Notes under the pieces: model-generated
What the model was told of the DNA's origin: nothing
Seen by the model: the letters and a program-made list of their open reading frames with translations, nothing else
Databases searched by the model: none
Part shown: positions 23,587 through 54,896 of the stretch, in pieces
Layout: each line of letters begins with the position of its first letter
How positions within the stretch are numbered: position 1 is the stretch's first letter
Program-made: the position numbers and the translations under genes
Source of the DNA: Acidimicrobiales bacterium
Lineage (GTDB): Bacteria > Actinomycetota > Acidimicrobiia > Acidimicrobiales > JBBRKR01
NCBI GenBank assembly: GCA_038231795.1
Contig: JBBRKR010000002.1
Coordinates: 90,702-154,701, forward strand
Direction of reading: 5' to 3'
DNA length: 64,000 bases

Positions 23587-23721
23587 GCCGAGGCAGCTTC
23601 ACAATTTACCGAAACTTGCCGATTATCTGCATCGTGAGGTTCGCCATTTGGCCGATACACTCAGTCATCCGTCTATCTCGTTGGTAGCGGGTTAGTCATG
23701 AACGATGTAGGGAAGGCCACA

Positions 23722-26229
23722 GTGTTCGAACGATTTACAGACCGGGCTCGCCGGGTAGTGGTGCTGGCACAAGAAGAAGCACGACTGCTCAATCACAATT
23801 ACATCGGCACCGAGCACATCCTGCTGGGCCTGATTCACGAGGGCGAAGGCGTTGCCGCCAAGGCTCTAGAGAGCTTGAGTATCTCGCTCGAGGGTGTACG
23901 CACCAAGGTCGAAGAGATCATTGGCCAAGGCGGCTCTTCGCCGTCTGGGCACATCCCCTTTACGCCTCGGGCCAAAAAGGTGCTCGAGTTGTCGTTGCGT
24001 GAAGCGCTGCAACTTGGCCACAATTACATCGGCACCGAGCACATTCTGCTGGGCCTGATTCGTGAGGGCGAAGGTGTTGCCGCCCAAGTGCTCGTGCAAC
24101 TGGGCGCCGATTTGAGTCGAGTTCGTCAGCAAGTTATTCAACTCCTGAGTGGTTACTCAGGCCCTGCTGGCGCCTCGACGGCCGGCAAAGAAACAGCTGG
24201 CGCAGCCAGCGGCTCCCAAACCGGTGAGACGCCAAGTGGCTCGGCAGTGCTTGATCAGTTCGGCCGCAACCTCACCCAAGCAGCTCGCGAGAAGAAGCTT
24301 GATCCTGTGATTGGTCGAGTTAAGGAAATGGAGCGCCTCATGCAGGTGCTCAGCCGACGTACTAAGAATAACCCAGTGCTGATTGGCGAGCCAGGCGTTG
24401 GCAAGACCGCCGTTGTAGAAGGTTTGGCCCAGAAGATTGTGGCCAACGATGTGCCTGAAACGATTCGCGGCAAGCAGCTCTACACGCTCGATTTGGGCGC
24501 ATTGGTGGCTGGCAGTCGGTACCGGGGCGATTTCGAAGAGCGACTGAAGAAGGTGTTGAAGGAAATCAAGACTCGTGGCGACATCATTCTGTTCATCGAC
24601 GAGATCCATACGTTGGTAGGCGCCGGAGCAGCTGAAGGTGCCATCGATGCTGCCAGCATCCTCAAGCCAATGTTGGCTCGTGGCGAATTGCAAACGATTG
24701 GCGCCACCACGCTCGAAGAGTTCCGCAAATATTTCGAAAAAGATGCCGCTCTCGAGCGTCGCTTCCAACCCATCAAAGTGGAAGAGCCAACCGTTGCTCA
24801 CACCATTGAAATTCTGAAGGGTCTTCGTGACCGTTACGAATCTCATCATCGGGTCACCATCACCGATCAGGCGTTGATTGCGGCTGCCAACTTGGCCGAT
24901 CGCTACATCGCCGATCGTCAACTTCCCGACAAGGCCATCGACCTCATCGACGAGGCTGGCAGCCGTTTGCGTATCAAGCGCATGGAGACTCCTCCCGACC
25001 TCAAGGAGATCGACAACAAGCTCACCCAAGTCCAGCAGCTAAAGAAAGACGCTGTTGAAAATCAACGCTTCGAAGAGGCCGGAAAGCTACGCGATACCGA
25101 AAAGGCGTTGCTCGAAGAGAAGGCCGCCAAAGAGGCTGAAATCAAGGCTTCTGGCGTCGACCTGTTCGACGAAGTGGATGAAGAAGCGATTGCCGAAGTG
25201 CTCTCCATGTGGACCGGTATACCGGTATACAAGCTCACCGAAGAAGAGACCGCCAAGCTGTTGCGCATGGAAGATGAATTGCATCATCGGGTGATTGGGC
25301 AGGAGTCGGCGATCAAGGCCGTCAGCCAGGCCATCCGTCGTACCCGCGCTGGATTGAAGGATCCCAAGCGGCCATCGGGTTCGTTCATATTCCTCGGACC
25401 ATCTGGCGTCGGTAAAACCGAGCTCGCCAAGACACTTGCGGAGTTTCTCTTCGGAGATGAGCAGTCCTTGATCTCGCTCGACATGAGTGAGTACATGGAG
25501 AAGCACACCGTGAGTCGTTTGGTCGGTTCGCCCCCTGGATATGTGGGCTACGACGAAGGCGGCCAGCTCACAGAAGCTGTGCGTCGCAAGCCGTTCAGCG
25601 TGGTGCTCTTCGACGAAATCGAAAAGGCCCACCCTGATGTATTCAACATACTGTTGCAAATTCTTGAAGAGGGCCGCTTGACCGATAGCCAAGGCCGCTC
25701 CGTCGACTTCCGCAACACGGTGTTGATCATGACCTCGAACCTTGGTACCCAAGACCTTCGCAAGGGTCATGTCGGTTTCTCCAAGAACGATGAGGCCATC
25801 AGTTACGAGAAGATGAAGGCCAAAGTCAATGAAGCCCTAAAGCAACATTTTCGGCCCGAATTCTTGAACCGTATCGACGACACCATCGTGTTCCACGAAT
25901 TGTCCAAGCCTGAAGTCACCCAGATCGTCGACCTCTTGCTCAAGCGGTTGCGTACCCAGTTGCAAGCTCAAGGCCTCGGCATCGAGCTCACCGATGCCGC
26001 CAAGGCACTTTTGGTCGACCGCGGTTACGACGCCACCATGGGTGCTCGTCCGTTGCGTCGTGCAATGCAGCGCATGCTTGAGGATCCGTTGTCGGAACGC
26101 TTATTGTTCAAGGAGTTCACGGCTGGTCATGTGATCATCGCCGATGTCGAAAACGACGACATAGTGTTTCGTACGATTGAGGGTTTCGAGCCTCCAACCG
26201 TAGAAATGGCCGACAAAGTCGCTGAGTGA
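23722..26229 (+). CDS. clpC: ATP-dependent Clp protease ATP-binding subunit ClpC
   Basis: The track ORF starts at 23698. I prefer the GTG at 23722, which gives [21 protein letters not shown] and has GGGAAGG upstream. It has two Clp-N repeats and Walker A motifs GEPGVGKT and GPSGVGKT. Confidence 0.9.
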
Positions 26230-40567: not shown

Positions 40568-41554
40568 GTGACTGGCATGGCAAAGCCGTTACAGGTTCAA
40601 TTGCTGACAGTGGTCCCATCAACACAAACTCGTGAGCTTGGCGGTTCGACGCGCCTAGGGGCCGAGTGGCTAACCGTCGGCACCGGGGTCGCTGTGTTCG
40701 CGGCGTTCCTCTCGGTCACATTTCTCGGCGGCCGTTGGCCTCTGTGGGTACTCCTCCCATTGCTCGCCGTTACCAGCGCGTGGCACAGTTCGTTTCAACA
40801 CGAACTCCTCCATGGACACCCATTCCAAAACCAAACGGTCAACGATGTGATTGGTTTGCTCTCGCCGCAATTGTGGATTCCGTATCGGGAATATCGGCGT
40901 ACCCACCTCCTGCACCATCGCAATGAGTTTTTGACCATGCCGGGCGTCGACCCGGAGGCGTACTACACCACCCGCCAAGTTTGGCGAGGGCGTAACTGGT
41001 TTGAGAAGACGTTGTTTCGGGCTAATCGAACACTGCTCGGCCGCCTAACAGTAGGTCCATTTCTAGTGATAGCCAGCTCGCTCAAAGCCGAGATTCCGCG
41101 AGTGATCAACGGCGAAGGCCGCGCCCGTCGCAGCTGGGCGGAACACGTGGTGGCCAACGGCATCGTGCTGTGGTGGGTTGTGAGCATGTGCAACATGCGG
41201 GTGTGGGTGTACCTCGTTGGCGCTGTGTATGGCGGGTTGGCCTTGGTGCTCCATCGCAGTTTTATCGAGCATCGGTTCGTGGCGGCCGACCGTGGGCGTA
41301 CGGCAATGGTCCAAGCTGGCCCGTTTTGGGCATTGCTGTACCTCAACAACAACTTGCACGACACGCACCACGAGCAGCCCCGTGCCCCGTGGTACCAGCT
41401 TCCTGCGCTAAGTGAACAGCTCGATTCAGCCACTAAGGCGCAAGCGGGTGGGGGCTTGTATCGCGGGTACTGGGACGTTGCTCGCCGGTATGGCCTGCGG
41501 CCATTTGATCAATCGGTGCACCCAAGCGAACTCGGTCTACAGTCCACTCGGTGA
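40568..41554 (+). CDS. membrane fatty acid desaturase-family di-iron protein
   Basis: 328 aa with three His boxes (HELLHGH, HLLHH, HDTHHEQP) and TM helices. The start is GTG at 40568 or ATG at 40577. Confidence 0.8.
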   Translation: MTGMAKPLQVQLLTVVPSTQTRELGGSTRLGAEWLTVGTGVAVFAAFLSVTFLGGRWPLWVLLPLLAVTSAWHSSFQHELLHGHPFQNQTVNDVIGLLSPQLWIPYREYRRTHLLHHRNEFLTMPGVDPEAYYTTRQVWRGRNWFEKTLFRANRTLLGRLTVGPFLVIASSLKAEIPRVINGEGRARRSWAEHVVANGIVLWWVVSMCNMRVWVYLVGAVYGGLALVLHRSFIEHRFVAADRGRTAMVQAGPFWALLYLNNNLHDTHHEQPRAPWYQLPALSEQLDSATKAQAGGGLYRGYWDVARRYGLRPFDQSVHPSELGLQSTR

Positions 41555-42330
41555 GCCCCGTTGCGACCTTGCCAATGTACGACCTGCCGGAGGTCGTTGG
41601 CCATACGAACGCTTTGTGGAATGCCATTGGCAGTCGAATTGATGGCGCCCCAAAATGGCTCACTCGTCCGACATCGACGCCCGAAATGCATGCATTGTGG
41701 AAGCATCCCGAGCTCGTGCTCGGACAGACATGCGGGTGGCCTCTTGTCACGGAGTTGTGGCCGTTGGTGATGAGCGGCGCGTTGAGCGTCGTAGGGACGT
41801 TTTGGTATCACGCGTCGACCGAAGATGGTTATTACAACGCCAATCACGTGTACCCAAATCCGAGGGGTGCCGTTCATTCGCCGCGCTCGGCGGTGAATTC
41901 TTACGACAGCTTGTCGGGGTGGGTAAGCCACGCGTATCGAAATACCGAAGCCATTACCTCGGTCCTGCTCACGGGCTCACACGTCGAGACGTTGCGGGCG
42001 ATTCAATCGAACACAGCCGACATGGGCACCATTGATGCAGTTACCTATGACCTCCTTCGCCGCCATCGCCCTGAGGCCGTGAGTGGGATTTTGGTCAGTA
42101 AAGGAGACCTTCGGGTGCCATGCCTTCCACTCATCACGACCCGGCCGGTGGAGGAAATTCGAGAAGCGATCGTGGACGCCCTCGCTCAGCCTGAATTGGC
42201 CACCGACCTCGACGCGCTTGCAATTTACGAATTCGTGCCGATGGACGCTTCGCATTACGAGCACCTACTTCGATACTCTGGCGATGCGAATTTCCGTTAC
42301 GATCGTCCCGGTAATTCTTTGCGAAATTAA
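41551..42330 (+). CDS. PhnD/SsuA-like substrate-binding-fold protein without signal peptide
   Basis: 259 aa with a GTGA overlap with the desaturase stop. The motifs PMYDLPEV, GQTCGWPLVTEL, NSYDSLSG, TGSHVETLRAIQ and IDAVTYDLLRRHRPE match the phosphonate-bd (PF12974-type) family as I remember it. Confidence 0.7.
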   Translation: MSPVATLPMYDLPEVVGHTNALWNAIGSRIDGAPKWLTRPTSTPEMHALWKHPELVLGQTCGWPLVTELWPLVMSGALSVVGTFWYHASTEDGYYNANHVYPNPRGAVHSPRSAVNSYDSLSGWVSHAYRNTEAITSVLLTGSHVETLRAIQSNTADMGTIDAVTYDLLRRHRPEAVSGILVSKGDLRVPCLPLITTRPVEEIREAIVDALAQPELATDLDALAIYEFVPMDASHYEHLLRYSGDANFRYDRPGNSLRN

Positions 42331-42378
42331 CCGGCCGCATTGCCGTCATATTTTGCTGACCAACGAGGGAGTGCACGA

Positions 42379-43932
42379 ATGAGCGAACCAGAATCAGCCG
42401 AGCCGCGTAAGCGTCGTGGCGGTCGCAGCGATGCCGTGCGCAGTCGTCTGCCCGAACAGGTCGCTTACAACCAGCCGCGGCTCCGGTACGCCCCCACAGA
42501 GGTCGTTTCGGCCGACGAGTTGGAGTCGATTCACAACGCGTCGCTCACAATTCTGGAAACCACGGGCATGGATTTCCTGGACGATGAAGCACGCCGTCTG
42601 CTCAAAGATGCGGGCGCCGATGTAAGGCCCGGAAGTGAGCGTGTTCGCTTCGACCGGGACATGATTCTTGAACGCATCAAAACGGTGCCCAAGCAGTTCA
42701 CGTTGCACTCGCGCAACCCAGCCCACAACATCGAAATCGGCGGCAACTATGTGTCGTATGGATCGGTGGCCAGTGCCCCCAATGTGTACGACATGGATAG
42801 GGGCCGGCGGGTCGGCAATCACGAGGATTATAAGAATCTGCTCCGCCTAAGCCAGATGCTCAACACGGTGCACTTTATAGCCGGATACCCCGTGGAGCCC
42901 ATCGACATTCACGCATCAGTACGCCATCTCGACGCCACCTACGACGCCTTAACCCTGACCGATAAGCCTATCCACGCCTATAGTTTGGGTCGTCAACGCA
43001 ACCAGGATTGCCTGGAACTCGTGCGATTGGCCCGCGGTATTGAGGACGCCACTCTCGATCAAGAACCATCGATTTTCACCGTCATCAACTCAAGTTCGCC
43101 ACTGCGTCTCGACACGCCAATGTTGCACGGAATTCTGGAATTTTCTGCCCGCAATCAAGTGATCGTGCTGACGCCATTCACGTTGTCGGGAGCAATGGCC
43201 CCCATCACGTTGGCTGGGGCGTTGGCGCAACAAAATGCAGAAGCACTGGCCGGCATCACATTGACTCAAGTGGTGCGCCCGGGATCGCCTGCGGTCTACG
43301 GCGGCTTTACCAGCAACGTGGATATGCAATCGGGCGCACCTGCATTCGGCACTCCGGAATTCATGCGCACCGCAATGGTCGGTGGGCAACTTGCTCGGCG
43401 GTATGGCTTTCCGTATCGCAGCTCCAACGTGTGCGCGGCCAATGCCCTCGACATGCAAGCGGCCTGGGAATCAGTCTTTTCCATCTGGGGAGCGTTGATG
43501 GGTGGCGTGAACATGATGATGCACGGCGCTGGATGGATGGAAGGCGGCCTGCACGCCGGTTACGAAAAAATGATCGTGGATGCCGAGCTTCTACAAATGG
43601 TGACTGCGTTCATGGAACCCATTGCTGTCGACAACGACTCTCTGGCGTTGGAGGCCATTGAAGAGGTCGGGCCTGGTGGTCACTTTTTTGGCACGTCGCA
43701 CACTCAAGCCCGCTTTCGCACGGCGTTCCATCACCCGATGTTGAGCGATTGGCGCAACTGGGAATCGTGGGAAGAAGCCGGCTCACCACAGACTCCTGGC
43801 AAGGCCAACGCCATCTGGAAGGAAATGCTCAACGCGTACGAGGCGCCATCAATTGATGACGCAGCGCGCGAAGGGATGGCGGCGTTCGTGAGTCGTCGCA
43901 AAGCCGCCGGTGGCGTCCCTACCGACTTCTAA
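42379..43932 (+). CDS. trimethylamine methyltransferase (MttB) superfamily protein, non-pyrrolysine type
   Basis: I moved the start to the ATG at 42379 (GAGGGA upstream), giving about 517 aa. The family-typical N-terminus is ADELESIHNASLTILETTGM, and length fits the family. The ORF is uninterrupted, with no internal TAG. Confidence 0.85.
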   Translation: MSEPESAEPRKRRGGRSDAVRSRLPEQVAYNQPRLRYAPTEVVSADELESIHNASLTILETTGMDFLDDEARRLLKDAGADVRPGSERVRFDRDMILERIKTVPKQFTLHSRNPAHNIEIGGNYVSYGSVASAPNVYDMDRGRRVGNHEDYKNLLRLSQMLNTVHFIAGYPVEPIDIHASVRHLDATYDALTLTDKPIHAYSLGRQRNQDCLELVRLARGIEDATLDQEPSIFTVINSSSPLRLDTPMLHGILEFSARNQVIVLTPFTLSGAMAPITLAGALAQQNAEALAGITLTQVVRPGSPAVYGGFTSNVDMQSGAPAFGTPEFMRTAMVGGQLARRYGFPYRSSNVCAANALDMQAAWESVFSIWGALMGGVNMMMHGAGWMEGGLHAGYEKMIVDAELLQMVTAFMEPIAVDNDSLALEAIEEVGPGGHFFGTSHTQARFRTAFHHPMLSDWRNWESWEEAGSPQTPGKANAIWKEMLNAYEAPSIDDAAREGMAAFVSRRKAAGGVPTDF

Positions 43933-43972
43933 TCAGCTAGAAATTGAACATCTACAACAAAGGATTGTGCTC

Positions 43973-46408
43973 GTGAAGTCATCGGCTCAGGTCGTCGTTA
44001 TTGGTGGTGGGGTAGTGGGGTGCAGTGTGCTGTATCACCTCACGAAGGCCGGTTGGACCGACGTTGTTTTGTTGGAACGCAAAGAACTCACGGCTGGTTC
44101 TACGTGGCATTCTGCGGGTGGCATGCACACCCTCAACGGTGACCCCAATGTGTCAAAATTGCAGCAGTACACGATCGAGCTCTACAAAGAAATCGAGAAG
44201 GTTTCTGGGCAAGATTGCAGTATCCATTTGCCAGGCGGCCTCATGTTGGCCGATACCGAAGTGCGCATGGACTGGCTGAAGATGGCCAAAGCCCGAGGCC
44301 GCTATCTGGGAATGGACCTCGACATCATCAGCTCCAAAGAGGCTGCTGATCTGTTCCCCCTACTTGATCCCAAGTACTTCGTGGGGGCGCTGTACGACCC
44401 TGTAGAAGGTCACGTGGATCCATCTGGTGTCACCCACGCATATGCCAAAGCAGCGCGCATGGCGGGCGCCGAGGTGTATCGCAACAACTGGGTTACAGGG
44501 CTCCAACATCGCCCAGATGGCACATGGACGGTGATTGCCGAACAGGGTGAAATTCACGCAGAACACGTGGTGAACTGTGGTGGTTTGTGGGCCCGCGAAG
44601 TAGGCCGTATGGCTGGTATCGAGCTGCCCGTGTTGGCCATGGAGCACATGTATATGGTCACAGAAGAAATGCCAGAAGTGGCAGCTCACTTCGCCGCTAC
44701 CGGCAAGGAAATGCCGATGGCCCTCGACTTCGCCGGCGAAATCTACATTCGTCAAGAACAAGGCGGCATGTTGCTTGGCACCTACGAGCAACAAGCCAAG
44801 GCGTGGTCGCCACGCACGACGCCATGGAACTTTGGTTTCGAACTCTTGACGCCCGATGTCGACCGCATCGCTCCCGAACTGGAAGTAGCGTTTAAGCATT
44901 ACCCGGCGATGGCTACCGCTGGTATCAAGAAGATTGTCAACGGACCATTTACGTTTTCGCCAGACGGCAACCCGCTCGTAGGGCCGATACGCGGCAAGCA
45001 AAACTATTGGGTGGCGTGCGCGGTGATGGCCGGCCTGAGCCAAGGTGGCGGCGTAGGTTTGGCGCTCGCCAACTGGATGACGCAAGGCGACCCCGGCCTT
45101 GATATCTGGGGCATGGACGTCGCTCGCTATGGCGATTACGCAACGTTGGCGTACACCAATGCCAAGGTGAACGAAAATTATCGTCGCCGTTTTCGCATCA
45201 CATTTCCCAACGAAGAGCTGCCAGCTGGACGCCCGCTGCACACCACCCCCATTTACGATCGACTCACCGAACACAACGCGGTGTGGGGTGCGTCGTTCGG
45301 CCTCGAGCACCCACTGTGGTTCCAAGAGCCCGGCAAAGATCCAGTGGAAGACGTCACCTTCAAACGGTCGAATGCGTTCGACATTGTGGCAGAGGAGTGC
45401 CGCGCCGTACGCGAAGCAGTGGGCCTAACCGAGACGTCCAACTTCGCCAAATATCACGTGAGTGGCAGCGATAGTGCGGCGTGGCTGCAGGGCCTGTTCA
45501 CTAACGCGTTGCCGCGTATCGGGCGTGTGATTTTGACAGCCATGCTGACGCCACGCGGGTTCATCGCCGGTGAATTTTCGGTGGCTCGAGTGGGCGCCAA
45601 CGAGTTCTATCTGTTCGGTTCCCAAGCCGCTGAAGTACACCATTCTCGTTGGTTCCTCAGCCATATTCCCGCTGGCGCCGACGTGAATTTCAAGGTGCTG
45701 GCCCTCGACCTTGTGGGCCTCAGCATTGCCGGTCCTCACGCTCGTGACGTACTGCAATCTGTCGTAGGCGACGACGTGAGCAACGACGCTTTCAAGTTCA
45801 TGGAGTTCCGTCAGATGGACGTTGGCATGGTGCCCGCCCACGTAGGTCGCATGACGTACTCAGGTGACCTGGGTTACGAAATTTGGATGGCCCCCGAATA
45901 TCAGCGCATGGCTTTCGACATGTTGTGGAAGGCCGGCCAGCCCTATGGCATGAAGCTATTTGGGTTCCGGGCGTTGATGAGTTTGCGTCTCGAGAAAAAC
46001 TTCGGCACATGGTTCCGTGAGTACCGCCCGATCTATACGCCGCTCGAAGCCGGCATGGAGCGCTACCTCAAATTGGACCACGAGTTCATGGGTCGTGAAG
46101 CGCTCGAAGCGGAAATGAAAGTTGGACCAGGCCGCAAGTTGGTGGCCATGGTCGTTGACGTTGACGTTGACGGTGCCGATGTGATCGGCGACGAGCCGAT
46201 TTGGCACGACGGCAAAGTGGTCGGTTGGGTCACATCAGGCGGGTACGTTCACTACTCCAAGAAGTCATTGGCCCTTGGCTACATTCCCGCCGAATTGGCC
46301 ACCCGCACTGACGAGGTATTCGAGATCGAAATCATCGGCGAGCGACGCACGGCTCGTTTGCAACTTCAGCCGTTGCTCGATCCCGCCGGCCAACGTATGC
46401 GGAGCTAG
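43973..46408 (+). CDS. dimethylglycine/sarcosine dehydrogenase-like FAD oxidoreductase with C-terminal GcvT folate-binding domain
   Basis: The track ORF starts at 43910 inside mttB. I prefer the GTG at 43973 (AAAGGA 9 nt upstream; the GTG at 43967 is also possible). It has a DAO motif (VVVIGGGVVGCS) and an aminomethyltransferase-like C-terminal half. Confidence 0.85.
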   Translation: MKSSAQVVVIGGGVVGCSVLYHLTKAGWTDVVLLERKELTAGSTWHSAGGMHTLNGDPNVSKLQQYTIELYKEIEKVSGQDCSIHLPGGLMLADTEVRMDWLKMAKARGRYLGMDLDIISSKEAADLFPLLDPKYFVGALYDPVEGHVDPSGVTHAYAKAARMAGAEVYRNNWVTGLQHRPDGTWTVIAEQGEIHAEHVVNCGGLWAREVGRMAGIELPVLAMEHMYMVTEEMPEVAAHFAATGKEMPMALDFAGEIYIRQEQGGMLLGTYEQQAKAWSPRTTPWNFGFELLTPDVDRIAPELEVAFKHYPAMATAGIKKIVNGPFTFSPDGNPLVGPIRGKQNYWVACAVMAGLSQGGGVGLALANWMTQGDPGLDIWGMDVARYGDYATLAYTNAKVNENYRRRFRITFPNEELPAGRPLHTTPIYDRLTEHNAVWGASFGLEHPLWFQEPGKDPVEDVTFKRSNAFDIVAEECRAVREAVGLTETSNFAKYHVSGSDSAAWLQGLFTNALPRIGRVILTAMLTPRGFIAGEFSVARVGANEFYLFGSQAAEVHHSRWFLSHIPAGADVNFKVLALDLVGLSIAGPHARDVLQSVVGDDVSNDAFKFMEFRQMDVGMVPAHVGRMTYSGDLGYEIWMAPEYQRMAFDMLWKAGQPYGMKLFGFRALMSLRLEKNFGTWFREYRPIYTPLEAGMERYLKLDHEFMGREALEAEMKVGPGRKLVAMVVDVDVDGADVIGDEPIWHDGKVVGWVTSGGYVHYSKKSLALGYIPAELATRTDEVFEIEIIGERRTARLQLQPLLDPAGQRMRS

Positions 46409-46410
46409 CG

Positions 46411-48579
46411 ATGGCTCGTTTCGTGATCGACGGCCAGCCCCTTGACTATGAGCCTGGCGATTCATTGGCGGTGGCGCTGTTTCGATCCGGACATCACCCA
46501 GCCCACGGCGGCACGTTGTGCCTGGCCGGCGATTGCGGAAACTGTGTTGCTGAAGTGAACGGAACAGCCTACGTACGTACGTGTCAAACCCTTGCTGCGC
46601 CAGGCACTGTGGTCAATCGGCATCCCGCAGTCGGCGCCCCGAAGTTTCGCTCGGTGCCGCAGAAAAATCCGGTCGAGACGCCGTTGGCGAGTGAGATCCC
46701 CGTGCGTCGCCGGTCGGCAGATGTGGTGGTCATCGGGTGTGGAGATTCGGGCGCGAATGCCGCGGCCCGCGCCGAGGCGGATGGGCGTCAGGTGACCATG
46801 CTGGACTCGAAGTTGGGTCACGAAGTTGTGGGTGTGTACGGCGGCCCGTCAGTGATCGTGCGCAGCCACGAGGGCATGACGCACCTCCATGCGCACGACG
46901 TGGTCATCTCCACCGGTGCCGCAGAACTACACCCCGTCTGCGAGGGCAATTTGCTCAAGGGCGCTGTCACAAAAAAGGCAGCAGAGTTGTTGTTGGCCGC
47001 TGGTGTTGAGCTGCCCCAAATGGTCACCGTTACCGATACTCCGCAACGCATCATCGGCAATGAAAATGGGTGGATCCGCGAAGTCGTGTTAGCCGGCGGC
47101 GAGACCGTGCCGTGCCACGTATTGGTGGTTGATCTCGGGCTTGCGCCACGTGACCTGTTGGCCCGAATGACTGACGAATCAAACGTCACAGTCGTAGGCC
47201 CGGCCGCCCAAAAATATTCTTTGCCGCCCTGCCCCACGAGCGGTTTCGTGTGCCCGTGCTCCAAGATCACTGTCGAAGATATCGATGGCGTGTGGGACCG
47301 TGGTTTTCACGAGCTCGAATTGGTGAAGCGATCGGCTCTGGTGGGTACTGGCACATGCCAAGGCGGGGCGTGCTTGCCTCACCTTCAGGCCTACGTGAAT
47401 GAGAAATCAGGTGCAGAATCCAAGCCGTTCACGGCCCGCCCGATTGCCCGCCAGTTGACGATCGGCGAAGCAGCGGCGGGCGCTTACGTGGACACCTTTC
47501 GCCGCACGGGGCTGCATGACGAGCACCTCAAACTGGGTGCCAACATGGACCGATTTGGCGGTTGGTGGCGGCCATGGAACTACGGAGATTTCCTGCAGGA
47601 ATATTGGGCAGTGCGCGAAGCCGTCTCCCTCGGCGATGTGAGCACACTCGGCAAGATGGTGATCTCTGGTCCCGATGCTCTCGAGGTTTTGGAACGCCTG
47701 TATCCCAACAACGTTTTTGATATCAAGCCCGGCCGCAGTCGTTATGTGTTGTTGCTCAACGAGCGAGGCCATCTCCTCGACGACGGCATGATCTGCCGCG
47801 AGTCCGACACACGCTTCGTGCTCACATTTACATCCGGTGGCGCGTCCTTCGCCGAGATGTGGGTACGGGACTGGATCGAAACGTGGGGTCTTGATGCCCA
47901 TGTGCTGGATCGCACTACATCGCTGGGAGCCATAAACGTAACTGGCCCGTTTGCCAAAGAATTACTGAGTCGAGTGGGCGTGAGTGATCCGCCGAAATTC
48001 TTGCAGCACACGCATATCGAAGTGGCCGGCGTGCCGTGTCATGTGATGCGGTTGAGCTTCACTGGCGAGGCGTCCTTCGAGCTCCACCACCCCATAGACC
48101 GGTCGGCTGAATTGTGGCAAGCCCTCATGGCGGCCGGCGCCGACCTCGGCATCCGGCCTCACGGGTTGCAAGCGCTATTTGCCCTTCGGCTCGAAAAGGG
48201 TCACGTGATTGTGGGTATGGATTCCGAGCTGGATTCCTCGCCTCGCCGTCTGCAATTGGAATGGGCTGTAAAGATGGACAAGCCCTACTTCGTGGGACGC
48301 GAAGCACTGGCCAGAGTGATGCCGCTGCCGAACCACCGCCAACTGTTTGGCTTCACAATGGACAGTCCAGGGCCTGTAGAAGGTGCGCCAATTTTCGACG
48401 GCCCCGACATCGTGGGTCACGTTGCTTCGAGTTTCGATTCGCCGTTGTTGGGTGAGGCCGTGATGTTGGGCTGGCTCAAACGCACGCCATTTCCCACCGA
48501 GGTCACCATCAACGGACGCACCGCCACCGTTGCCCACACACCGTTCTACGACAAAGAAGGCGGCAGGGCACGTGGATAA
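46411..48579 (+). CDS. soxA: sarcosine oxidase alpha subunit family protein (short form)
   Basis: 722 aa. It has an N-terminal 2Fe-2S-like domain (LCLAGDCGNCVAEVNG), the dinucleotide motif VVVIGCGDSGANAA and a C-terminal GcvT domain. Confidence 0.8.
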   Translation: MARFVIDGQPLDYEPGDSLAVALFRSGHHPAHGGTLCLAGDCGNCVAEVNGTAYVRTCQTLAAPGTVVNRHPAVGAPKFRSVPQKNPVETPLASEIPVRRRSADVVVIGCGDSGANAAARAEADGRQVTMLDSKLGHEVVGVYGGPSVIVRSHEGMTHLHAHDVVISTGAAELHPVCEGNLLKGAVTKKAAELLLAAGVELPQMVTVTDTPQRIIGNENGWIREVVLAGGETVPCHVLVVDLGLAPRDLLARMTDESNVTVVGPAAQKYSLPPCPTSGFVCPCSKITVEDIDGVWDRGFHELELVKRSALVGTGTCQGGACLPHLQAYVNEKSGAESKPFTARPIARQLTIGEAAAGAYVDTFRRTGLHDEHLKLGANMDRFGGWWRPWNYGDFLQEYWAVREAVSLGDVSTLGKMVISGPDALEVLERLYPNNVFDIKPGRSRYVLLLNERGHLLDDGMICRESDTRFVLTFTSGGASFAEMWVRDWIETWGLDAHVLDRTTSLGAINVTGPFAKELLSRVGVSDPPKFLQHTHIEVAGVPCHVMRLSFTGEASFELHHPIDRSAELWQALMAAGADLGIRPHGLQALFALRLEKGHVIVGMDSELDSSPRRLQLEWAVKMDKPYFVGREALARVMPLPNHRQLFGFTMDSPGPVEGAPIFDGPDIVGHVASSFDSPLLGEAVMLGWLKRTPFPTEVTINGRTATVAHTPFYDKEGGRARG

Positions 48580-48952
48580 TTTCGACACCATTCATTGTCG
48601 ACGGGTAGTCGCCACCGCTGCCGCGCTTGACGGCGCCACATGGCCGAGCGGCGCTCTGATTTTGCGTATTGCCCCCGATGATGTGTTGGTTATCGGCGAC
48701 GGCGATATCGCTATCGACGATATGCACGCCATCGTCTGCGACGAGGCCGGATTCTCGGGAACGTGGCTCGATTACGAAGCGTTTGCGCCATTCGCCGAAA
48801 GCCACATTCACTGGTCGCTACCAACCGGTCGGTCCGTTCTGGCTCAAGGTCTGCTGGCTCAAGTCCCCGTGAAATTGTGGCTGGGAAGCGACAGCGTTTT
48901 GCTCCTTGTAGCCACAGTTTCGAAACACGAATTGACGGAGCGGCTGGCATGA
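48572..48952 (+). CDS. sarcosine oxidase gamma subunit-like protein (short)
   Basis: A GTG at 48572 overlaps the soxA stop (GTGGATAA), giving about 126 aa. The LRIAPDDVLVIG motif and the overall pattern resemble SoxG. It sits between soxA and soxB. Confidence 0.5.
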   Translation: MDNFDTIHCRRVVATAAALDGATWPSGALILRIAPDDVLVIGDGDIAIDDMHAIVCDEAGFSGTWLDYEAFAPFAESHIHWSLPTGRSVLAQGLLAQVPVKLWLGSDSVLLLVATVSKHELTERLA

Positions 48953-50157
48953 ACGAATTCGTGGAAACCATCTTGGACCTTACGTGGCACGAACCGAAGT
49001 CGAGCTACGACGTGGTGATTGTGGGAGGCGGCGGTCATGGCTTGGCTACTGCTTATTACCTCGCCACTCGGCACGGTATTACCAACGTCGCAGTCATCGA
49101 AAAGGACTACATCGGGTCAGGCAATTCAGGGCGCAACACCACGATTATCCGCGCCAATTACGGCATCCCAGAATCGATTCGTTTTTACTCACACAGCTTG
49201 CGCCTCTACGAGAATCTGGAAGCCGAAACCGGCTGCTGGATCATGCATGCTACAAAAGGCCTGATGTGGCTGGCTCACACGGAATCGGCCATGCGAGCAG
49301 AGCGTGCCCGATGCCAGCTCAACACTGCGTGCGGCACCGAAACCGTGATGGTCACCCCTGCCGAAGCAAAGCAAATCTGCCCACAACTCGACCTCAGCGG
49401 GGGTGGTCGTTACCCGCTGTTGGGAGCTTCGCATCACACTGGCGCAGCCACGGCGCGCCATGACCGCGTGGTGTGGGCCTATGCCCAAGGGGCCATGCGT
49501 CAAGGTGTGCACGTGTTGCAAAATACGGCTGTTACAGGTCTTGTGATGGACGGCGAACGAGTCACTGGGGTGCGCACTCCGCAGGGCATCATTTCGGCAG
49601 GCATTGTGATGAGCGCCGTCGGCGGCGATGTCACCTCGTTGGCGGCCCACGCTGGCGTGCGATTGCCGATTCGTACCCATCCTCTGCAAGCGTTCGTCAC
49701 CAACGGGTACGCCCAGAGTTTCGGGCCCATTATTAGCGACACTGAACTGCTGTGTTACGTGTCGCAGACCGCCCGCGGGCAGATGCTCATCGGCGCCGAA
49801 TTTGATCGCCAGCAAAGCTTTTCGCGGCAATCTACTTTTGATTTCGTGCAATCTGTTTCGGCCAAGCTTTCTCACCTGTTGCCGTTCCTGAGGGATCTAC
49901 GAATCATGCGGCAGTGGACGGGCCGATGCGATGTGTCGAGCGACTTTTCGCCCGTCATGGGGTTCACCGGCGTGGACGGTTTTGTTATCACAACGGGATG
50001 GGGCACATGGGGCTTCAAAGGTATCCCTGCTGGCGGTGAGCAAATGGCACAGCTCATTGCCACTGGGCAGACGCCAGATCTCATCAAACCGTTTGCTCTG
50101 AGCCGGTTCAGTACCGATCACGCCATGGCCGACCAAGGATCGACAGGTACTCGCTGA
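48949..50157 (+). CDS. soxB: sarcosine oxidase beta subunit
   Basis: I moved the start to the ATG at 48949 (ATGA overlap with the upstream stop), giving 402 aa. The sequence includes YDVVIVGGGGHGLATAYYLATRHGITNVAVIEKDYIGSGNSGRNTTIIRANY. Confidence 0.9.
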   Translation: MNEFVETILDLTWHEPKSSYDVVIVGGGGHGLATAYYLATRHGITNVAVIEKDYIGSGNSGRNTTIIRANYGIPESIRFYSHSLRLYENLEAETGCWIMHATKGLMWLAHTESAMRAERARCQLNTACGTETVMVTPAEAKQICPQLDLSGGGRYPLLGASHHTGAATARHDRVVWAYAQGAMRQGVHVLQNTAVTGLVMDGERVTGVRTPQGIISAGIVMSAVGGDVTSLAAHAGVRLPIRTHPLQAFVTNGYAQSFGPIISDTELLCYVSQTARGQMLIGAEFDRQQSFSRQSTFDFVQSVSAKLSHLLPFLRDLRIMRQWTGRCDVSSDFSPVMGFTGVDGFVITTGWGTWGFKGIPAGGEQMAQLIATGQTPDLIKPFALSRFSTDHAMADQGSTGTR

Positions 50158-50393
50158 TGTTGTGGATCACATGCCCATGCTGCGGTCATCGACCGGTGGA
50201 TGAATTCCGCTTTGGTGGTGAGATGCCCGACGTTCCCGCATCAGTGGTGGGCGACGACGCTCGCGATCTCGATCGGGTGTAGATGTTTAACAACATCGAT
50301 GGGCCGTCCGTGGAGCGTTGGTTTCATGAAGGCGGTTGCCGCAGGTGGTATACGGTTACTCGCGACACGCACAGCGATCGCGTGCTGAGTTAG
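50157..50393 (+). pseudogene. soxD: sarcosine oxidase delta subunit interrupted by in-frame TAG at 50280-50282 (nonsense, split gene or recoding)
   Basis: Not in the ORF track because both halves are under 60 aa. The frame starting at the ATG at 50157 (TGATG overlap with the soxB stop) reads MLWITCPCCGHRPVDEFRFGGEMPDVPASVVGDDARDLDRV, then TAG, then MFNNIDGPSVERWFHEGGCRRWYTVTRDTHSDRVLS, then TAG. Both halves match the SoxD zinc-binding pattern (CPxCG ... ERWxHxxGCRRW). Confidence 0.75.
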
Positions 50394-50402
50394 ATTTTTG
50401 TT

Positions 50403-51602
50403 GTGACGCTCATTGGTGACTTCGACGTATACCTTCGGGTGGCAGCCCTCGAAACGGTGGCGGCCAATTGTGACCGTGTGACGGCAACATGGAGCGATGG
50501 TCATGTTGGGCACTTTCACTTGGTGTGGCTACGTGACAATTGCCCGTGCGAGATGTGTGTTCATACTGGGACCAAAGAGCAAACCTTTGAATTGTTGGAT
50601 GGGCCATCCGACTTGACACTCGTGTCGGGTGGAGTTGTCTCGGCAAGAGACATGGATCTCACATGGTTCGACGGCCACCGCACCGTGATCGACGGAGCGT
50701 GGCTACGAGCCCATTGCTATTGCGATCTGTGCTTGGCGAATGCCGGCGCAGCGCCGAAGCTGTGGACCGCCGCCACCATGAGCGAGCCGCCTACCTTCGC
50801 ATGGTCGAGCGTGTCGACACTCGACAGTGCTCGATACGAGTGGCTTTCGGCACTGCGAGATTTCGGCACCACCCGAGTGAGCGGCTTACCCACTACCGAT
50901 GAGATGGTTGGCGAGTTGGCCCGCTTGATTGGCCCGGTGCGTGACACCAACTTTGGCGTACAGTGGGATGTGTGGACAGAGCCAGACCCTGTCACTAACG
51001 CCAACACGGCATTGCTTCTCCCGTCGCACGTCGACTTACCGACACGGGAATACCAGCCAGGCCTTCAGTTTTTACACTGCCTAGAAAATGAGGCAGCAGG
51101 TGGGATGAGCACCATGGTCGATGGATTTGCGGTAGCCAACGCGCTGCGCAAATTCGATTCAGAGGCGTTTGAAACTCTCACTACGGTGCCGTGGAATTGG
51201 GCCAACAGGTCCAAGACCAGCGACTACCGATGGGCGTCGCCAATGATCGTGACCGACCACACCGGTGCGGTCACCGAAGTACGAGTGGGCAACTGGCTAC
51301 GCGCTCCGCTGCAGACAAAAGCAGCAGATGTGGAGCGGGCCTACACGGCGTATCGAGCATTTGCCACGCTGACTCGAAGCAAGGAGTTCCGCATCGAATT
51401 CCGCTTCGAACCAGGTGACTGTATCGCCTTTGACAACCGACGGATTTTACACGGCCGCACTGCGTTCGATGATGGCGACAATGGTCGCCGTCATTTGCGG
51501 GGGTGCTACTCAGAACGCGATGAATTGCACTCGCGGCTGCGAATTTTAGAGCGTCAACGGCGGGCTGTCGGGAGCCACGATGATGCGCACAATCATGAAT
51601 GA
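50403..51602 (+). CDS. gamma-butyrobetaine hydroxylase-like dioxygenase (DUF971 N-domain + TauD/TfdA Fe(II)/2-oxoglutarate domain)
   Basis: 399 aa with a GTG start. The N-terminal zinc motif is WSDGHVGHFHLVWLRDNCPCEMC. The TauD-like core has the HVD facial-triad context (LLLPSHVDLP) and RILHGR. Confidence 0.8.
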   Translation: MTLIGDFDVYLRVAALETVAANCDRVTATWSDGHVGHFHLVWLRDNCPCEMCVHTGTKEQTFELLDGPSDLTLVSGGVVSARDMDLTWFDGHRTVIDGAWLRAHCYCDLCLANAGAAPKLWTAATMSEPPTFAWSSVSTLDSARYEWLSALRDFGTTRVSGLPTTDEMVGELARLIGPVRDTNFGVQWDVWTEPDPVTNANTALLLPSHVDLPTREYQPGLQFLHCLENEAAGGMSTMVDGFAVANALRKFDSEAFETLTTVPWNWANRSKTSDYRWASPMIVTDHTGAVTEVRVGNWLRAPLQTKAADVERAYTAYRAFATLTRSKEFRIEFRFEPGDCIAFDNRRILHGRTAFDDGDNGRRHLRGCYSERDELHSRLRILERQRRAVGSHDDAHNHE

Positions 51603-52733
51603 ACCAAGGACGCAATTGATGGTGAGTAGCGCCCAAAAGTATCCCGTTGATCCCAGGTGACTCATCGAAGTTGAGCTAATGAGCGGACCGGTCATGGCGC
51701 CGATGGCATACAACCTCACAAGAGCACTGCCGGCGGCCACCACTTTGTCGGCGGGGAGCCAATCGTTGGTGTACACGTTGGCCAGGCCGTAGAGCGGCGT
51801 GCTCAAGCCTCCTAGAAGCCCAAAGGCCACGAGTGAGGGCGTAGATCCTGGTTGCAGAGACACGAGCGCTAAGCACGTGCCAGCGCTGCCCAACGCTAAA
51901 ACGACGAAGAGCAGCCGGCGTGGGACCTTGTCGGCAACTACGCCCGCTGGCACTTGCAGAAGCACTGTCCCCATCATGATGGCGATCATTACTTTCGCTA
52001 TTTGAGAAGACGTCAGTCCGACGTTGGTTGCCCACACCGATGCCATCACGATGACAGCGCTCTGTGTCATGCCCACCAACACCATGGCAATGGCACCTGA
52101 CGGCACAAGTTGCACAACGCTCTTCAAAGAAATGTGGCCATCGTTGCTGGCTAACGAGCGGCTGGCGGGGATTCGAATCAGCGCTAGGGATGCCGCCGCC
52201 GTGGCCGTTCCCGCGATCAGAAAGGGCACCACCGTATTGGTGTTGGCCACGTTGAGTAACACCTGTCCAACTGCAATGCCTCCCGAGATCACGGCTACGT
52301 AGATAGCGATCAAACGACCGCGGGTTTTGTTGGAAGCCAGGTCATTGAGCCACGATTCCACGACGACGTACACTCCTCCCAATGATCCTCCACCGATAAG
52401 TCGCAGCAGCATCCATGAAGGCTTGTTGACTAAAACTCCATACATCACACAGGCACTGGCCATTGTGGAAGCAAACATCGCGAAGCAGGTCGTCCGTGTG
52501 AAGCGACCCAGCATGCGCACGGCCAACGGGGTGGCGATCAAGAACCCGACATACGTCATCGAGTTGATGACCCCCATGGAATCAGTCGAGAATCCCTCGG
52601 CTTTCGCTCGAATACTCAACAGTGAGCCGAGCAGCCCGTAGCCGACCATCAAGATGCCCATGCCCACGATGATCGACGTCGCTGCGCGACGCGATGGGGT
52701 GCCGTGAACCTTCCCGAGTACAACGGTGATCAT
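51546..52733 (-). CDS. MFS transporter
   Basis: 395 aa with about 12 predicted TM segments. Its 3' end overlaps the convergent dioxygenase gene by 57 nt. Confidence 0.85.
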   Translation of the reverse strand: MITVVLGKVHGTPSRRAATSIIVGMGILMVGYGLLGSLLSIRAKAEGFSTDSMGVINSMTYVGFLIATPLAVRMLGRFTRTTCFAMFASTMASACVMYGVLVNKPSWMLLRLIGGGSLGGVYVVVESWLNDLASNKTRGRLIAIYVAVISGGIAVGQVLLNVANTNTVVPFLIAGTATAAASLALIRIPASRSLASNDGHISLKSVVQLVPSGAIAMVLVGMTQSAVIVMASVWATNVGLTSSQIAKVMIAIMMGTVLLQVPAGVVADKVPRRLLFVVLALGSAGTCLALVSLQPGSTPSLVAFGLLGGLSTPLYGLANVYTNDWLPADKVVAAGSALVRLYAIGAMTGPLISSTSMSHLGSTGYFWALLTINCVLGSFMIVRIIVAPDSPPLTL

Positions 52734-52806
52734 GCCCCACTTTAGCTCGCACGATTTGTTGCCAAACTCGTCGAGCCCCCTTGAGCTGCCGACCTAATGT
52801 GGGCGG

Positions 52807-53979
52807 ATGTCTGCACCAGATCCTCGCCTTGCCGCCCGAACGTACGGCGTGGCGCCGTTCCATGTAGTGGCACTGAGCGAGGTGGCGTATTCCTTGATGG
52901 CACAAGGCCGTGACGTGATCATGATGCTTCCCGGCGAGCCCGATTTTGGTACTCCGCAACCAGTGGTCGATGCGGTCACTCAGGCACTGCAAAATGGTCG
53001 TGTGCGATACACACAATCGTTCGGTATTCCATCGTTGCGACTCAAGATCGCCGAGTACTACGCCACTCGGTTCGGAGTGACGGTGCCGATGGAGCGCATT
53101 GCCGTCACCACTGGTGCATCCAGCGCTTTGCTGTTGGCTCTGGCTGCCACACTCGACAAAGGCCAACAGCTCTTGCTCTCCGATCCGGGTTATCCGTGTA
53201 ATCGTCACTTTGCACGGATCTACGAAGGACGCAGCGTCAACGTGCCGGTGGGGCCAGAAACCAACTACCAGCTGTCGGCCGAACTCATTGATCAGCATTG
53301 GACTGCCGATACCGGCGGCGTTCTCATTGCTACGCCGTCGAATCCCACGGGAACCATCGTGCCTCCCGACGAGTTGGCTCGAATTGCCGTGACTGTGGCG
53401 GGGCACGGCGGCACGTTGATCGTCGACGAGATTTACGCCGAGCTGGTGTACGACTCCGACCCGAAAACGATTTTGAGCTACACCCACGATGCCTTTGTAA
53501 TCAACAGCTTCTCGAAAACTTTTGGCATGACGGGCTGGCGATTGGGATGGATGATCGTGCCCGAATGGGCTGTGGCGGCCGTCACCAGACTGGCAGCCAA
53601 CATGTACATCTCCGCACCTGAAATATCACAACACGCCGGCGCCGCATGTTTCACGCCCGAAGTGTGGGCCATCGTGGCGCAAAGAAAAGCCGAGCTGCAG
53701 GCCCGTCGCGATCTGTTGGTGGCGGGCTTGCGGGAGCTTGGATTCGGGGTGCCGGTTGTGCCTGAGGGAGCGTTCTATGTGTACGCCGATTGTTCTGCGT
53801 TTACCGACAATTCCTACGACTGGTGTGTGCGTCTGCTCAATGAGGAATTTGTGGGCGTCACGCCGGGAATCGACTTCGGAAAAAATCGGGCCCGGGAGCA
53901 TGTGCGTTTCAGCTACACCTGTTCACAAAAACAAATCACAGAAGCATTGCACCGGATCGCCCGTTTCCTGAACCTATGA
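52807..53979 (+). CDS. pyridoxal phosphate-dependent aminotransferase (aspartate aminotransferase-like, class I)
   Basis: 390 aa with ATPSNPTG and the PLP-lysine motif NSFSKTFGMTGWRLGW. Confidence 0.85.
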   Translation: MSAPDPRLAARTYGVAPFHVVALSEVAYSLMAQGRDVIMMLPGEPDFGTPQPVVDAVTQALQNGRVRYTQSFGIPSLRLKIAEYYATRFGVTVPMERIAVTTGASSALLLALAATLDKGQQLLLSDPGYPCNRHFARIYEGRSVNVPVGPETNYQLSAELIDQHWTADTGGVLIATPSNPTGTIVPPDELARIAVTVAGHGGTLIVDEIYAELVYDSDPKTILSYTHDAFVINSFSKTFGMTGWRLGWMIVPEWAVAAVTRLAANMYISAPEISQHAGAACFTPEVWAIVAQRKAELQARRDLLVAGLRELGFGVPVVPEGAFYVYADCSAFTDNSYDWCVRLLNEEFVGVTPGIDFGKNRAREHVRFSYTCSQKQITEALHRIARFLNL

Positions 53980-54896
53980 GTAGCAAACAGGATCACCATC
54001 CGTTGGCCATTGGCGGCGAGCTGGTGGCAGTTTTGGCATGGGGCGCGTCAGCAGGCTGGAGTCGCCACAGCCATGCGTCGGGATTCGTGTTCGCGTTTTG
54101 GCGACTGGGTTATGGCGCTGTATTGAGCTATGTCGCGTTGCGAATCAGCGGTCGCCGGTTGACGTGGCAGCAGCTCAAATTGTCGATCCCTGGCGGATTG
54201 ATTTTCGCGACGCATTTGGCCCTGTTTTTCACCTGTATTCGTCACACCACGGTTGCCAATGTGACGGTCATCGAAGCGCTGTCACCGGTGCTCATCTTGC
54301 CGTTCGCCAAACGGTTCTTTGGCGAGGTTGCTGGCCGTCGCGAGTGGCTGCTGGCTCTTGTGGCCGTAACGGGCGTAACGGTGGCCATTGCGGCTGGCGC
54401 TAGCGGCGGACATTCCAGCACATTCGGAGTGGTGGTGGCAGGATTCAATCTTGTGTCGTGGACGTTGTATTTCATGATCGGCAAAACGGCCAGGCGGCAT
54501 CTGGACGCTATGACCTTTATGGCGGGGCTCATGATCGTGGCGTGTATTTCATTTGCTCCCGTTGCATTGCTTGCATCAGATGTCACAGATGTTCGATCGC
54601 GTGATTGGTTGTGGTTTTTCTTAGCGGCTGCTGTGCCCGGCATGTTGGGTCACGGGATGATCAATTGGGCGCACAAGTTCGTTCCCGTCTCGGTTTCGGC
54701 GGTCATGGCTCTCGGTGTTCCTGTGGTTGCAGCGTTGGTTGCGTGGCCCGAATTCGGGGAGCGTATTTCGGTGCTGCAAGCGGCGGGCATGTCGGTGGTC
54801 ATTGGGGCTCTGGCGGTTATGGCCGTCATAGAGGCCCGTCGCGAGCAATCGGCCGTTTACCCGATCAGTGCCGCAGAGGCCACCGCAGGTCCGTAG
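53976..54896 (+). CDS. EamA/DMT family transporter
   Basis: 306 aa with 10 predicted TM segments in two EamA-like halves. It has an ATGA overlap with the aminotransferase stop. Confidence 0.85.
   Translation: MSSKQDHHPLAIGGELVAVLAWGASAGWSRHSHASGFVFAFWRLGYGAVLSYVALRISGRRLTWQQLKLSIPGGLIFATHLALFFTCIRHTTVANVTVIEALSPVLILPFAKRFFGEVAGRREWLLALVAVTGVTVAIAAGASGGHSSTFGVVVAGFNLVSWTLYFMIGKTARRHLDAMTFMAGLMIVACISFAPVALLASDVTDVRSRDWLWFFLAAAVPGMLGHGMINWAHKFVPVSVSAVMALGVPVVAALVAWPEFGERISVLQAAGMSVVIGALAVMAVIEARREQSAVYPISAAEATAGP

What the first reader, a model, noticed from the sequence alone, without database searches (positions are those of the whole stretch)
50157..50393. soxD is interrupted by an in-frame TAG that is immediately followed by ATG
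Read from the ATG at 50157, the frame gives a textbook SoxD N-terminus (MLWITCPCCGHRPVDEFRFGGE...DLDRV). A TAG follows at 50280-50282. The same frame then continues MFNNIDGPSVERWFHEGGCRRWYTVTRDTHSDRVLS to a second TAG at 50391-50393. The zinc site of SoxD uses ligands from both halves (CPxCG and HxxGC), so both pieces are needed. In my recollection of homologs (…DYLFMRDNPKG…ERWxH…), the TAG falls at an aromatic Phe/Tyr position and the following Met is the conserved Met.

Possible explanations:
- a recent Tyr (TAC/TAT) to TAG nonsense mutation, or a base-call error
- a genuinely split gene expressed as peptides of 41 and 36 aa by termination-reinitiation at TAGATG
- low-level amber read-through

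The rest of the operon looks intact, which argues against long-standing decay. The amber codon lies a few kb from an MttB-family gene, and that family is famous for amber-encoded pyrrolysine. I regard this as coincidence; see the rejected items.
Basis: partly seen in the sequence, partly recalled or inferred. Interest (0 to 1): 0.6.

Follow-up and report, generated by a model that had tools for sequence, protein, structure and literature searches.

The report
One-base nonsense change in soxD
The stop codon inside this small sarcosine-oxidase-type subunit gene is a single G-to-A change of a conserved tryptophan codon that is absent from an otherwise identical independent assembly and from 80 relatives, so it is an ordinary fresh mutation or sequence error, not a special coding mechanism.

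Summary
An in-frame TAG at 50280-50282 splits a 78-codon SoxD-family gene (50157-50393) into pieces of 41 and 36 codons, and an ATG follows it directly.

The interesting readings do not hold. A public Logan contig (run SRR19962015, locus L003) matches window 46352-51813 with one mismatch in 5,462 bases. That mismatch is window 50281, A versus G, which makes TAG versus TGG (Trp). A second contig from the same run matches 51838-54279 with no mismatch. In 80 related loci the aligned codon is TGG in 74, TTC in 3 and TAC in 3, and none has an internal stop.

The ATG is the family's conserved Met43, not a newly evolved start. TAG is a normal stop in this genome: it ends 15 of 55 long ORFs, soxD itself and a neighbouring operon gene. 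The window has no pylT, and the MttB-family gene has no internal TAG. soxD has been under strong purifying selection in both halves (omega 0.03-0.27).

The best reading is a private, very recent TGG-to-TAG transition. It is either a real nonsense allele or a consensus error, and only reads can decide. Interest is low.

The parts
50157..50279 (+). soxD-family gene, codons 1-41 (N-terminal piece with the CPxCG motif, C6 and C9)
   Evidence: The start ATG overlaps the soxB stop (TGATG at 50155-50159).
50280..50282 (+). Premature TAG at codon 42. Base 50281 is A here and G (TGG, Trp) in the otherwise identical Logan contig L003.
   Evidence: One search found a single mismatch in 5,462 bases. One search found TGG in 74, TTC in 3 and TAC in 3 of 80 loci.
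50283..50393 (+). soxD-family gene, codons 43-78 plus the natural TAG stop (C-terminal piece with ERWFHEGGC, H57 and C61). It begins with the conserved Met43.
   Evidence: Omega for this half is 0.03 against L001 and L002.
48949..50157 (+). SoxB-family FAD oxidoreductase (402 aa), intact
   Evidence: TIGR01373, 401.9 bits, below the cut-off of 529. It is 100% identical to L003.
48572..48952 (+). 126-aa ORF conserved between the SoxA-like and SoxB genes; no family match
   Evidence: called as a gene in L001 and L003; no match; conserved in most related loci at 35-66% identity.
46411..48579 (+). Short SoxA-like subunit (722 aa: Fer2_4, Fer2_BFD/SO_alpha_A3, GCV_T, GCV_T_C), intact
   Evidence: The exact protein is encoded on L003.
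43910..46408 (+). Dimethylglycine-dehydrogenase-like protein (DAO + FAO_M + GCV_T + GCV_T_C); its ORF ends in TAG
42340..43932 (+). MttB-family methyltransferase with no internal TAG (non-pyrrolysine type)
   Evidence: PF06253, profile positions 1-499 of 500 in one uninterrupted ORF. (TIGR02369, 308 bits against a cut-off of 525).
50403..51602 (+). Gamma-butyrobetaine-hydroxylase-like (TauD family) dioxygenase, starting 9 nt after the soxD stop
   Evidence: It is identical in L003.

Best explanation
Codon 42 of a normal, strongly constrained soxD-family gene has undergone a single unprogrammed G-to-A transition at window position 50281, turning TGG (Trp) into TAG. TAG is an ordinary stop codon in this organism. 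As written, the gene is therefore a nonsense allele that would terminate after 41 residues. The change is private to this assembly and extremely recent. I cannot tell from sequence alone whether the A exists in the cells or only in the consensus. If it is in the cells, it is a fresh loss-of-function mutation or a minority variant picked up by the assembler. If it is only in the consensus, it is a base or assembly error, or a later alteration of the record. I put the two at roughly even odds. In either case the TAG-ATG junction is an accident: the ATG is the family's conserved Met43. There is no evolved recoding, split-gene or pyrrolysine mechanism. This much is shown: the one-base difference, the Trp ancestry, the absence of stops in relatives, normal use of TAG as a stop, and purifying selection on both halves. 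That the product is non-functional, and that early termination may lower expression of the downstream dioxygenase gene, are inferences.
For: 1. Logan contig L003 (run SRR19962015) encodes the identical 722-aa SoxA-like protein and a 78-aa uninterrupted SoxD. It aligns to window 46352-51813 with one mismatch in 5,462 bases. That mismatch is 50281, A against G, i.e. TAG against TGG.
2. Contig L082 from the same run matches window 51838-54279 at 100% over 2,442 bases. Together the two contigs give 7,904 compared bases with one difference.
3. The seven database homologs (64-94% identity) are uninterrupted proteins of 76-81 aa. Six have W and one has F at this position.
4. In 80 loci (77 GTDB genomes plus L001-L003) the aligned codon is TGG in 74, TTC in 3 and TAC in 3. 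None has an internal stop.
5. Met43 is present in 67 of 80, so the ATG predates the TAG.
6. TAG terminates 15 of 55 long ORFs in the window, including the operon's DMGDH-like gene. It also terminates soxD itself, here and in the close relatives.
7. Between the window and its relatives L001 and L002, omega is 0.04-0.11 for the whole gene and 0.03 for the C-terminal half. The gene was therefore functional until very recently.
8. Neighbouring genes give full-length family matches, with no sign of general decay or of an error-ridden assembly.
Against: I had no reads, so I cannot verify the A directly or choose between a real allele and an artefact. Bacterial termination-reinitiation is mechanistically possible here: the stop abuts an ATG, and a GGGTG 5 nt upstream pairs with the anti-Shine-Dalgarno sequence at -6.3 kcal/mol, similar to real starts in the operon. 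Some C-terminal peptide could therefore be made, and a partly functional split delta subunit cannot be excluded. It is also somewhat odd that the only difference in 7.9 kb is a nonsense change.
Confidence: 0.9

Rival explanations
1. The gene is genuinely split. The delta subunit is made as 41-aa and 36-aa peptides by termination-reinitiation at TAGATG, and the two peptides assemble around the zinc site into a working enzyme.
For: The stop and the ATG are directly adjacent. An SD-like GGGTG lies 5 nt upstream and pairs at -6.3 kcal/mol, compared with -5.8 to -6.5 for the SoxA-like, 126-aa and SoxB starts. The operon already uses a stop-start overlap at soxB/soxD (TGATG). The ligand motifs in both halves are intact.
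Against: Both the ATG and the GGGTG are ordinary coding sequence (Arg40-Val41, Met43), present unchanged in relatives that carry TGG, so nothing has been adapted for a split. No split occurs in any of 80 loci. An otherwise identical assembly reads TGG. The conserved aromatic residue 42 would be lost. About 11% of random positions in the window pair with the anti-SD equally well.
Confidence: 0.04
2. The TAG is real and the gene stays partly functional through low-level amber read-through by a near-cognate tRNA (for example Tyr or Gln) or by a suppressor tRNA encoded elsewhere in the genome.
For: Basal read-through of stop codons exists in bacteria (general knowledge). Tyr occurs naturally at this position in 3 of 80 relatives, so a Tyr insertion would probably be tolerated. 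The rest of the operon is intact.
Against: TAG ends 27% of the long ORFs, including soxD's own end, so efficient suppression would be harmful genome-wide. The only tRNA in the window is tRNA-Thr. The flanking sequence is identical to the TGG allele, so no read-through signal has evolved. The TAG is not conserved anywhere.
Confidence: 0.04
3. The TAG encodes pyrrolysine or reflects a reassigned amber codon, linked to the nearby MttB-family gene.
For: Only proximity: the amber codon lies about 6 kb from an MttB-family gene.
Against: The MttB-family ORF is uninterrupted over the whole Pfam profile and scores below the cut-off of the pyrrolysine-type equivalog model. No pylT is in the window. TAG is a common stop here (15 of 55). 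Orthologs have Trp, Phe or Tyr at the site. Relatives are Acidimicrobiia and Chloroflexota MAGs, which to my knowledge are not pyrrolysine users.
Confidence: 0.005

Closest known systems
Delta subunit (SoxD) of heterotetrameric sarcosine oxidase: Corynebacterium sp. U-96 (PDB 1VRQ/1X31 chain D) and Stenotrophomonas maltophilia (PDB 2GAG/2GAH chain D)
   Same: A small protein matching Pfam PF04267 over its full length. It aligns to the PDB chains at E = 3e-12 and 4e-11, with C6, C9, H57 and C61 opposite C6, C9, H59 and C63. From my own knowledge of the published structures, not verified here, those four residues are the Cys3His zinc ligands. The gene sits directly after a SoxB-family gene.
   Different: About 20 residues shorter than the 99-residue PDB chains, and below NCBIfam's soxD cut-off. 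The cassette order is SoxA-like (722 aa, with 2Fe-2S-type domains), a 126-aa ORF, SoxB, SoxD, rather than soxBDAG. The substrate is unknown. This copy carries a premature TAG.
Ordinary nonsense alleles, young pseudogenes, or single-base consensus errors in assemblies
   Same: One transition in a conserved sense codon, private to one sequence, with no accompanying changes and no conservation in relatives.
   Different: Nothing distinguishes it, apart from the coincidental ATG after the stop.
Translational coupling by termination-reinitiation at overlapping or adjacent stop-start codons in bacterial operons
   Same: A stop directly followed by an ATG, with a weak SD-like element upstream. The natural soxB/soxD junction (TGATG) is of this type.
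   Different: Known cases are junctions between genes and are conserved. Here the junction lies inside a domain and is found in one sequence only.
Amber-encoded pyrrolysine in MttB, MtbB and MtmB methyltransferases
   Same: An in-frame TAG in a genome region that also holds an MttB-family gene.
   Different: The TAG is in a different gene. The local MttB homolog has no TAG, no pyl genes or pylT were seen, TAG is a frequent stop, and the site is Trp in orthologs.

Membership tests
SoxD family (Pfam PF04267) | Full-length match to the family profile above the gathering score | tested here: met
   65.9 bits against a cut-off of 27; residues 4-77 match profile positions 2-77 of 82, with the stop bridged by X.
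SoxD family (NCBIfam TIGR01374, soxD subfamily) | Score above NCBI's curated cut-off | tested here: not met
   60.6 bits against a cut-off of 116.5. The protein is a divergent branch of the family.
SoxD family | Four metal-ligand residues (CxxC near the N-terminus, HxxxC near the C-terminus) | tested here: met
   C6, C9, H57 and C61 align to C6, C9, H59 and C63 of 1VRQ_D and 2GAG_D. They are conserved in 78-79 of 79 related loci. That these residues bind zinc is from my memory of the published structures.
SoxD family | An uninterrupted reading frame giving one polypeptide | tested here: not met
   TAG at codon 42. All 80 compared loci are uninterrupted.
Canonical heterotetrameric sarcosine oxidase operon (soxBDAG) | Gene order B-D-A-G, with an alpha subunit of about 1000 aa and a recognisable gamma subunit | tested here: not met
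   The order is SoxA-like (722 aa; TIGR01372 261 bits against 1164), a 126-aa ORF with no family match, SoxB, SoxD.
Canonical heterotetrameric sarcosine oxidase | Sarcosine oxidase activity | not testable with these tools
   Needs biochemistry. All three subunit matches fall below NCBIfam's cut-offs, so the substrate is uncertain.
Pyrrolysine-encoding amber codon | pylT/pylS machinery present | tested here: inconclusive
   The only tRNA in the 64-kb window is tRNA-Thr. The rest of the genome could not be examined.
Pyrrolysine-encoding amber codon | TAG conserved at the site in orthologs, and TAG depleted as a stop codon | tested here: not met
   0 of 80 orthologous loci have TAG at the site. 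TAG ends 15 of 55 long ORFs.
Evolved split gene or programmed termination-reinitiation | The split is conserved in related genomes | tested here: not met
   No split in 80 loci. An otherwise identical assembly has TGG.
Evolved split gene or programmed termination-reinitiation | Stop next to a start codon with a ribosome-binding element | tested here: met
   TAGATG, with GGGTG 5 nt upstream at -6.3 kcal/mol. Both elements are ancestral coding sequence.

The most novel reading that the evidence does not exclude
The A at 50281 is a real allele carried by living cells, and the delta subunit still works. It would do so either as two peptides made by accidental termination-reinitiation at TAGATG that reassemble around the metal site, or through leaky amber read-through. 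That would be a snapshot of a gene surviving fission at the moment it happens.
Probability: 0.06. Interest if true: 0.35.

Novelty: already known. Interest (0 to 1): 0.1.

Why it matters
It matters little. If the base is real, one strain has just lost, or crippled, the small subunit of a sarcosine-oxidase-like amine oxidase in a quaternary-amine catabolism cluster. If the base is an error, the gene should be annotated as intact. The practical lesson is for annotation: this site should not be taken as evidence of recoding, pyrrolysine or gene fission. The conserved non-canonical cassette around it (SoxA-like with iron-sulfur-type domains, an unknown 126-aa protein, SoxB, SoxD) in Acidimicrobiia and Chloroflexota is more interesting than the stop codon.

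Tried and rejected
- Exact-product look-ups for the 41-aa and 36-aa pieces found no gene call anywhere in the public collection. The TAG allele was therefore not seen in any other assembly.
- A scan of JGI metagenome contigs with a 29-base pattern that accepts either allele found nothing. There are no further same-species copies in that collection.
- The genome-contig scan did not return the window's own genome; the closest locus there, L069, is 85% identical over residues 1-48, where its contig ends. I could not inspect the source record or its annotation.
- Exact look-ups for two other window proteins (843 aa at 23698-26229, and MttB with its TTG start) found nothing. This is probably due to start-codon choice or contig breaks.
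- Two literature searches for the zinc ligands of SoxD returned nothing useful. The statement that these residues bind zinc rests on my own knowledge.
- I looked for signs of an error-prone assembly, such as frameshifted or split neighbours. The ten further ORFs tested gave full-length domain matches or were shadow ORFs, so there is no general quality problem.
- The 126-aa ORF was tested as a possible SoxG. It has no Pfam, NCBIfam or credible PDB match, so this remains unresolved.

Full report
**Observation.** An ATG at 50157 opens a frame reading MLWITCPCCGHRPVDEFRFGGEMPDVPASVVGDDARDLDRV. A TAG follows at 50280-50282 and an ATG at 50283. The same frame then continues MFNNIDGPSVERWFHEGGCRRWYTVTRDTHSDRVLS to a second TAG at 50391-50393. 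With the stop bridged, the 78-residue product matches Pfam SoxD (PF04267) across essentially the whole profile (65.9 bits, cut-off 27). It also aligns to the delta chains of the two solved heterotetrameric sarcosine oxidases, 1VRQ_D and 2GAG_D (E = 3e-12 and 4e-11). The two pieces are therefore halves of one gene.

**Origin of the TAG.** A search of the large protein collection returned seven homologs at 64-94% identity. All are uninterrupted proteins of 76-81 residues; six have Trp and one has Phe at the interrupted position. The decisive result came from looking up where the window's own SoxA-like protein (722 aa) is encoded.
- A Logan contig from run SRR19962015 (L003) carries exactly that protein, and next to it a SoxD called as an intact 78-aa gene.
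- L003 aligns to window 46352-51813 with one mismatch in 5,462 bases.
- That mismatch is window position 50281, A in the window and G in L003, which makes TAG against TGG.
- A second contig of the same run (L082) matches window 51838-54279 with no mismatch in 2,442 bases.

So 7,904 bases of an independent assembly of the same strain differ from the window at one base, and that base creates the stop.

**Relatives.** A scan of one genome per GTDB species with the SoxD alignment gave 78 loci, mostly MAGs of Acidimicrobiia and other Actinomycetota and of Chloroflexota (Limnocylindria). Across 80 loci, including L001-L003, the codon aligned to the TAG is TGG in 74, TTC in 3 and TAC in 3. No locus has an internal stop. 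The following residue is Met in 67 of 80, so the ATG after the stop is ancestral. The four ligand positions C6, C9, H57 and C61 are kept in 78-79 of 79. Comparison with the two closest divergent relatives (L001, L002) gives omega of 0.04-0.11 for the gene and 0.03 for the part downstream of the stop. Both halves were under strong purifying selection until the change occurred. The ancestral codon was Trp and the change is a G-to-A transition.

**Is TAG a stop here?** Yes.
- It ends 15 of the 55 non-overlapping long ORFs in the window (TGA 24, TAA 16), including the DMGDH-like gene of the same cluster.
- It is soxD's own conserved terminator, in the window and in the close relatives.
- The only tRNA in the window is tRNA-Thr.
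- The MttB-family gene at 42340-43932 is one uninterrupted ORF covering the entire Pfam profile, and it scores below the cut-off of the pyrrolysine-type equivalog model.

**Could the split be expressed?** It could, mechanically. The stop abuts an ATG. A GGGTG 5 nt upstream pairs with the anti-Shine-Dalgarno sequence at -6.3 kcal/mol, in the range of real starts in the operon (-5.8 to -6.5). About 11% of random positions in the window pair equally well. The soxB-soxD junction itself is a TGATG overlap. However, the ATG and the GGGTG are ordinary coding sequence (Arg40-Val41, Met43) and are present unchanged in relatives that carry TGG. Nothing has been shaped for reinitiation. Any C-terminal peptide would be an accidental by-product lacking the conserved aromatic residue 42. 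Whether two such peptides could assemble is unknown. I rate a functional split or read-through at a few percent each.

**Real mutation or artefact?** The sequence alone cannot decide this. The neighbouring genes are intact and identical to L003. Ten further ORFs I examined gave full-length domain matches or were shadow ORFs, so the assembly is not generally error-prone. The A could be one of three things:
- a fresh nonsense mutation;
- a minority variant that one assembler chose and the other did not;
- a consensus or record error.

Look-ups for the two short products found no gene call in any public assembly. A JGI metagenome scan for either allele found nothing. Read-level inspection of 50281 is the decisive test.

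**Context.** The cluster is not a textbook soxBDAG operon. The gene order is:
- an MttB-family methyltransferase;
- a DMGDH-like protein;
- a short SoxA-like protein (722 aa with Fer2_4 and BFD-like domains and the folate-binding GCV_T domains);
- a 126-aa ORF with no Pfam, NCBIfam or PDB match;
- SoxB;
- SoxD;
- a gamma-butyrobetaine-hydroxylase-like dioxygenase;
- an MFS transporter on the opposite strand;
- an aminotransferase.

The SoxA-like, SoxB and SoxD proteins all score below NCBIfam's cut-offs. The SoxA-like, 126-aa, SoxB, SoxD order recurs in about 60 of the related loci, often preceded by the DMGDH-like gene. The canonical B-D-A order appears only in distant hits. SoxD is thus a conserved terminal member of a distinct cassette, which fits with it being needed. 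Because soxD ends 9 nt before the dioxygenase start, early termination could also reduce expression of that gene. This last point is an inference.

**Verdict.** The favoured interpretation is an ordinary one-base nonsense change or error in a conserved Trp codon (confidence about 0.9). The split-gene, read-through and pyrrolysine readings lack any support from conservation. Novelty: already known kind of event. Interest: low.

Noticed in passing
window 43910-50393; loci L004-L078: A non-canonical sarcosine-oxidase-like cassette: DMGDH-like protein, SoxA-like protein (722 aa, with N-terminal Fer2_4 and BFD-like 2Fe-2S-type domains and most of the usual nucleotide-binding part missing), a 126-aa ORF, SoxB, SoxD. 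It recurs in this order in about 60 MAGs of Acidimicrobiia/Actinomycetota and Chloroflexota (Limnocylindria). All subunits score below NCBIfam's sarcosine oxidase cut-offs, so the substrate and electron acceptor may differ from classical sarcosine oxidase.
   Followed up: partly
window 48572-48952 (+): A conserved 126-aa ORF between the SoxA-like and SoxB genes. It has no Pfam or NCBIfam match and only a non-significant PDB hit (VirK, E = 0.087). It is present at 35-66% identity in most related loci. It may be a very divergent gamma-type subunit or a new subunit.
   Followed up: partly
window 50403-51602 (+): A GBBH/TauD-family dioxygenase that scores similarly, and below cut-off, for gamma-butyrobetaine dioxygenase (318 bits against 415) and for 2-trimethylaminoethylphosphonate dioxygenase TmpA (293 bits against 400). 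Only the closest relatives (L001-L003) have it directly after soxD. With the MttB-family gene, this suggests a quaternary-amine catabolism island.
   Followed up: no
window around 51561-51570; L001, L002: Mosaic identity to relatives. L001 is 95% identical to the window downstream of 51561 but only 82% identical upstream, whereas L002 is 93-95% identical on both sides. This suggests recombination among closely related strains near the 3' end of the dioxygenase gene.
   Followed up: no
window 50155-50159: The soxB stop and the soxD start overlap (TGATG), which implies translational coupling of the two subunits.
   Followed up: no
window 40568-42330 (+): A fatty-acid-desaturase-family protein and a weak phosphonate-binding-protein-like ORF lie directly upstream of the MttB-family gene. 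Their link to the amine catabolism cluster is unclear.
   Followed up: no
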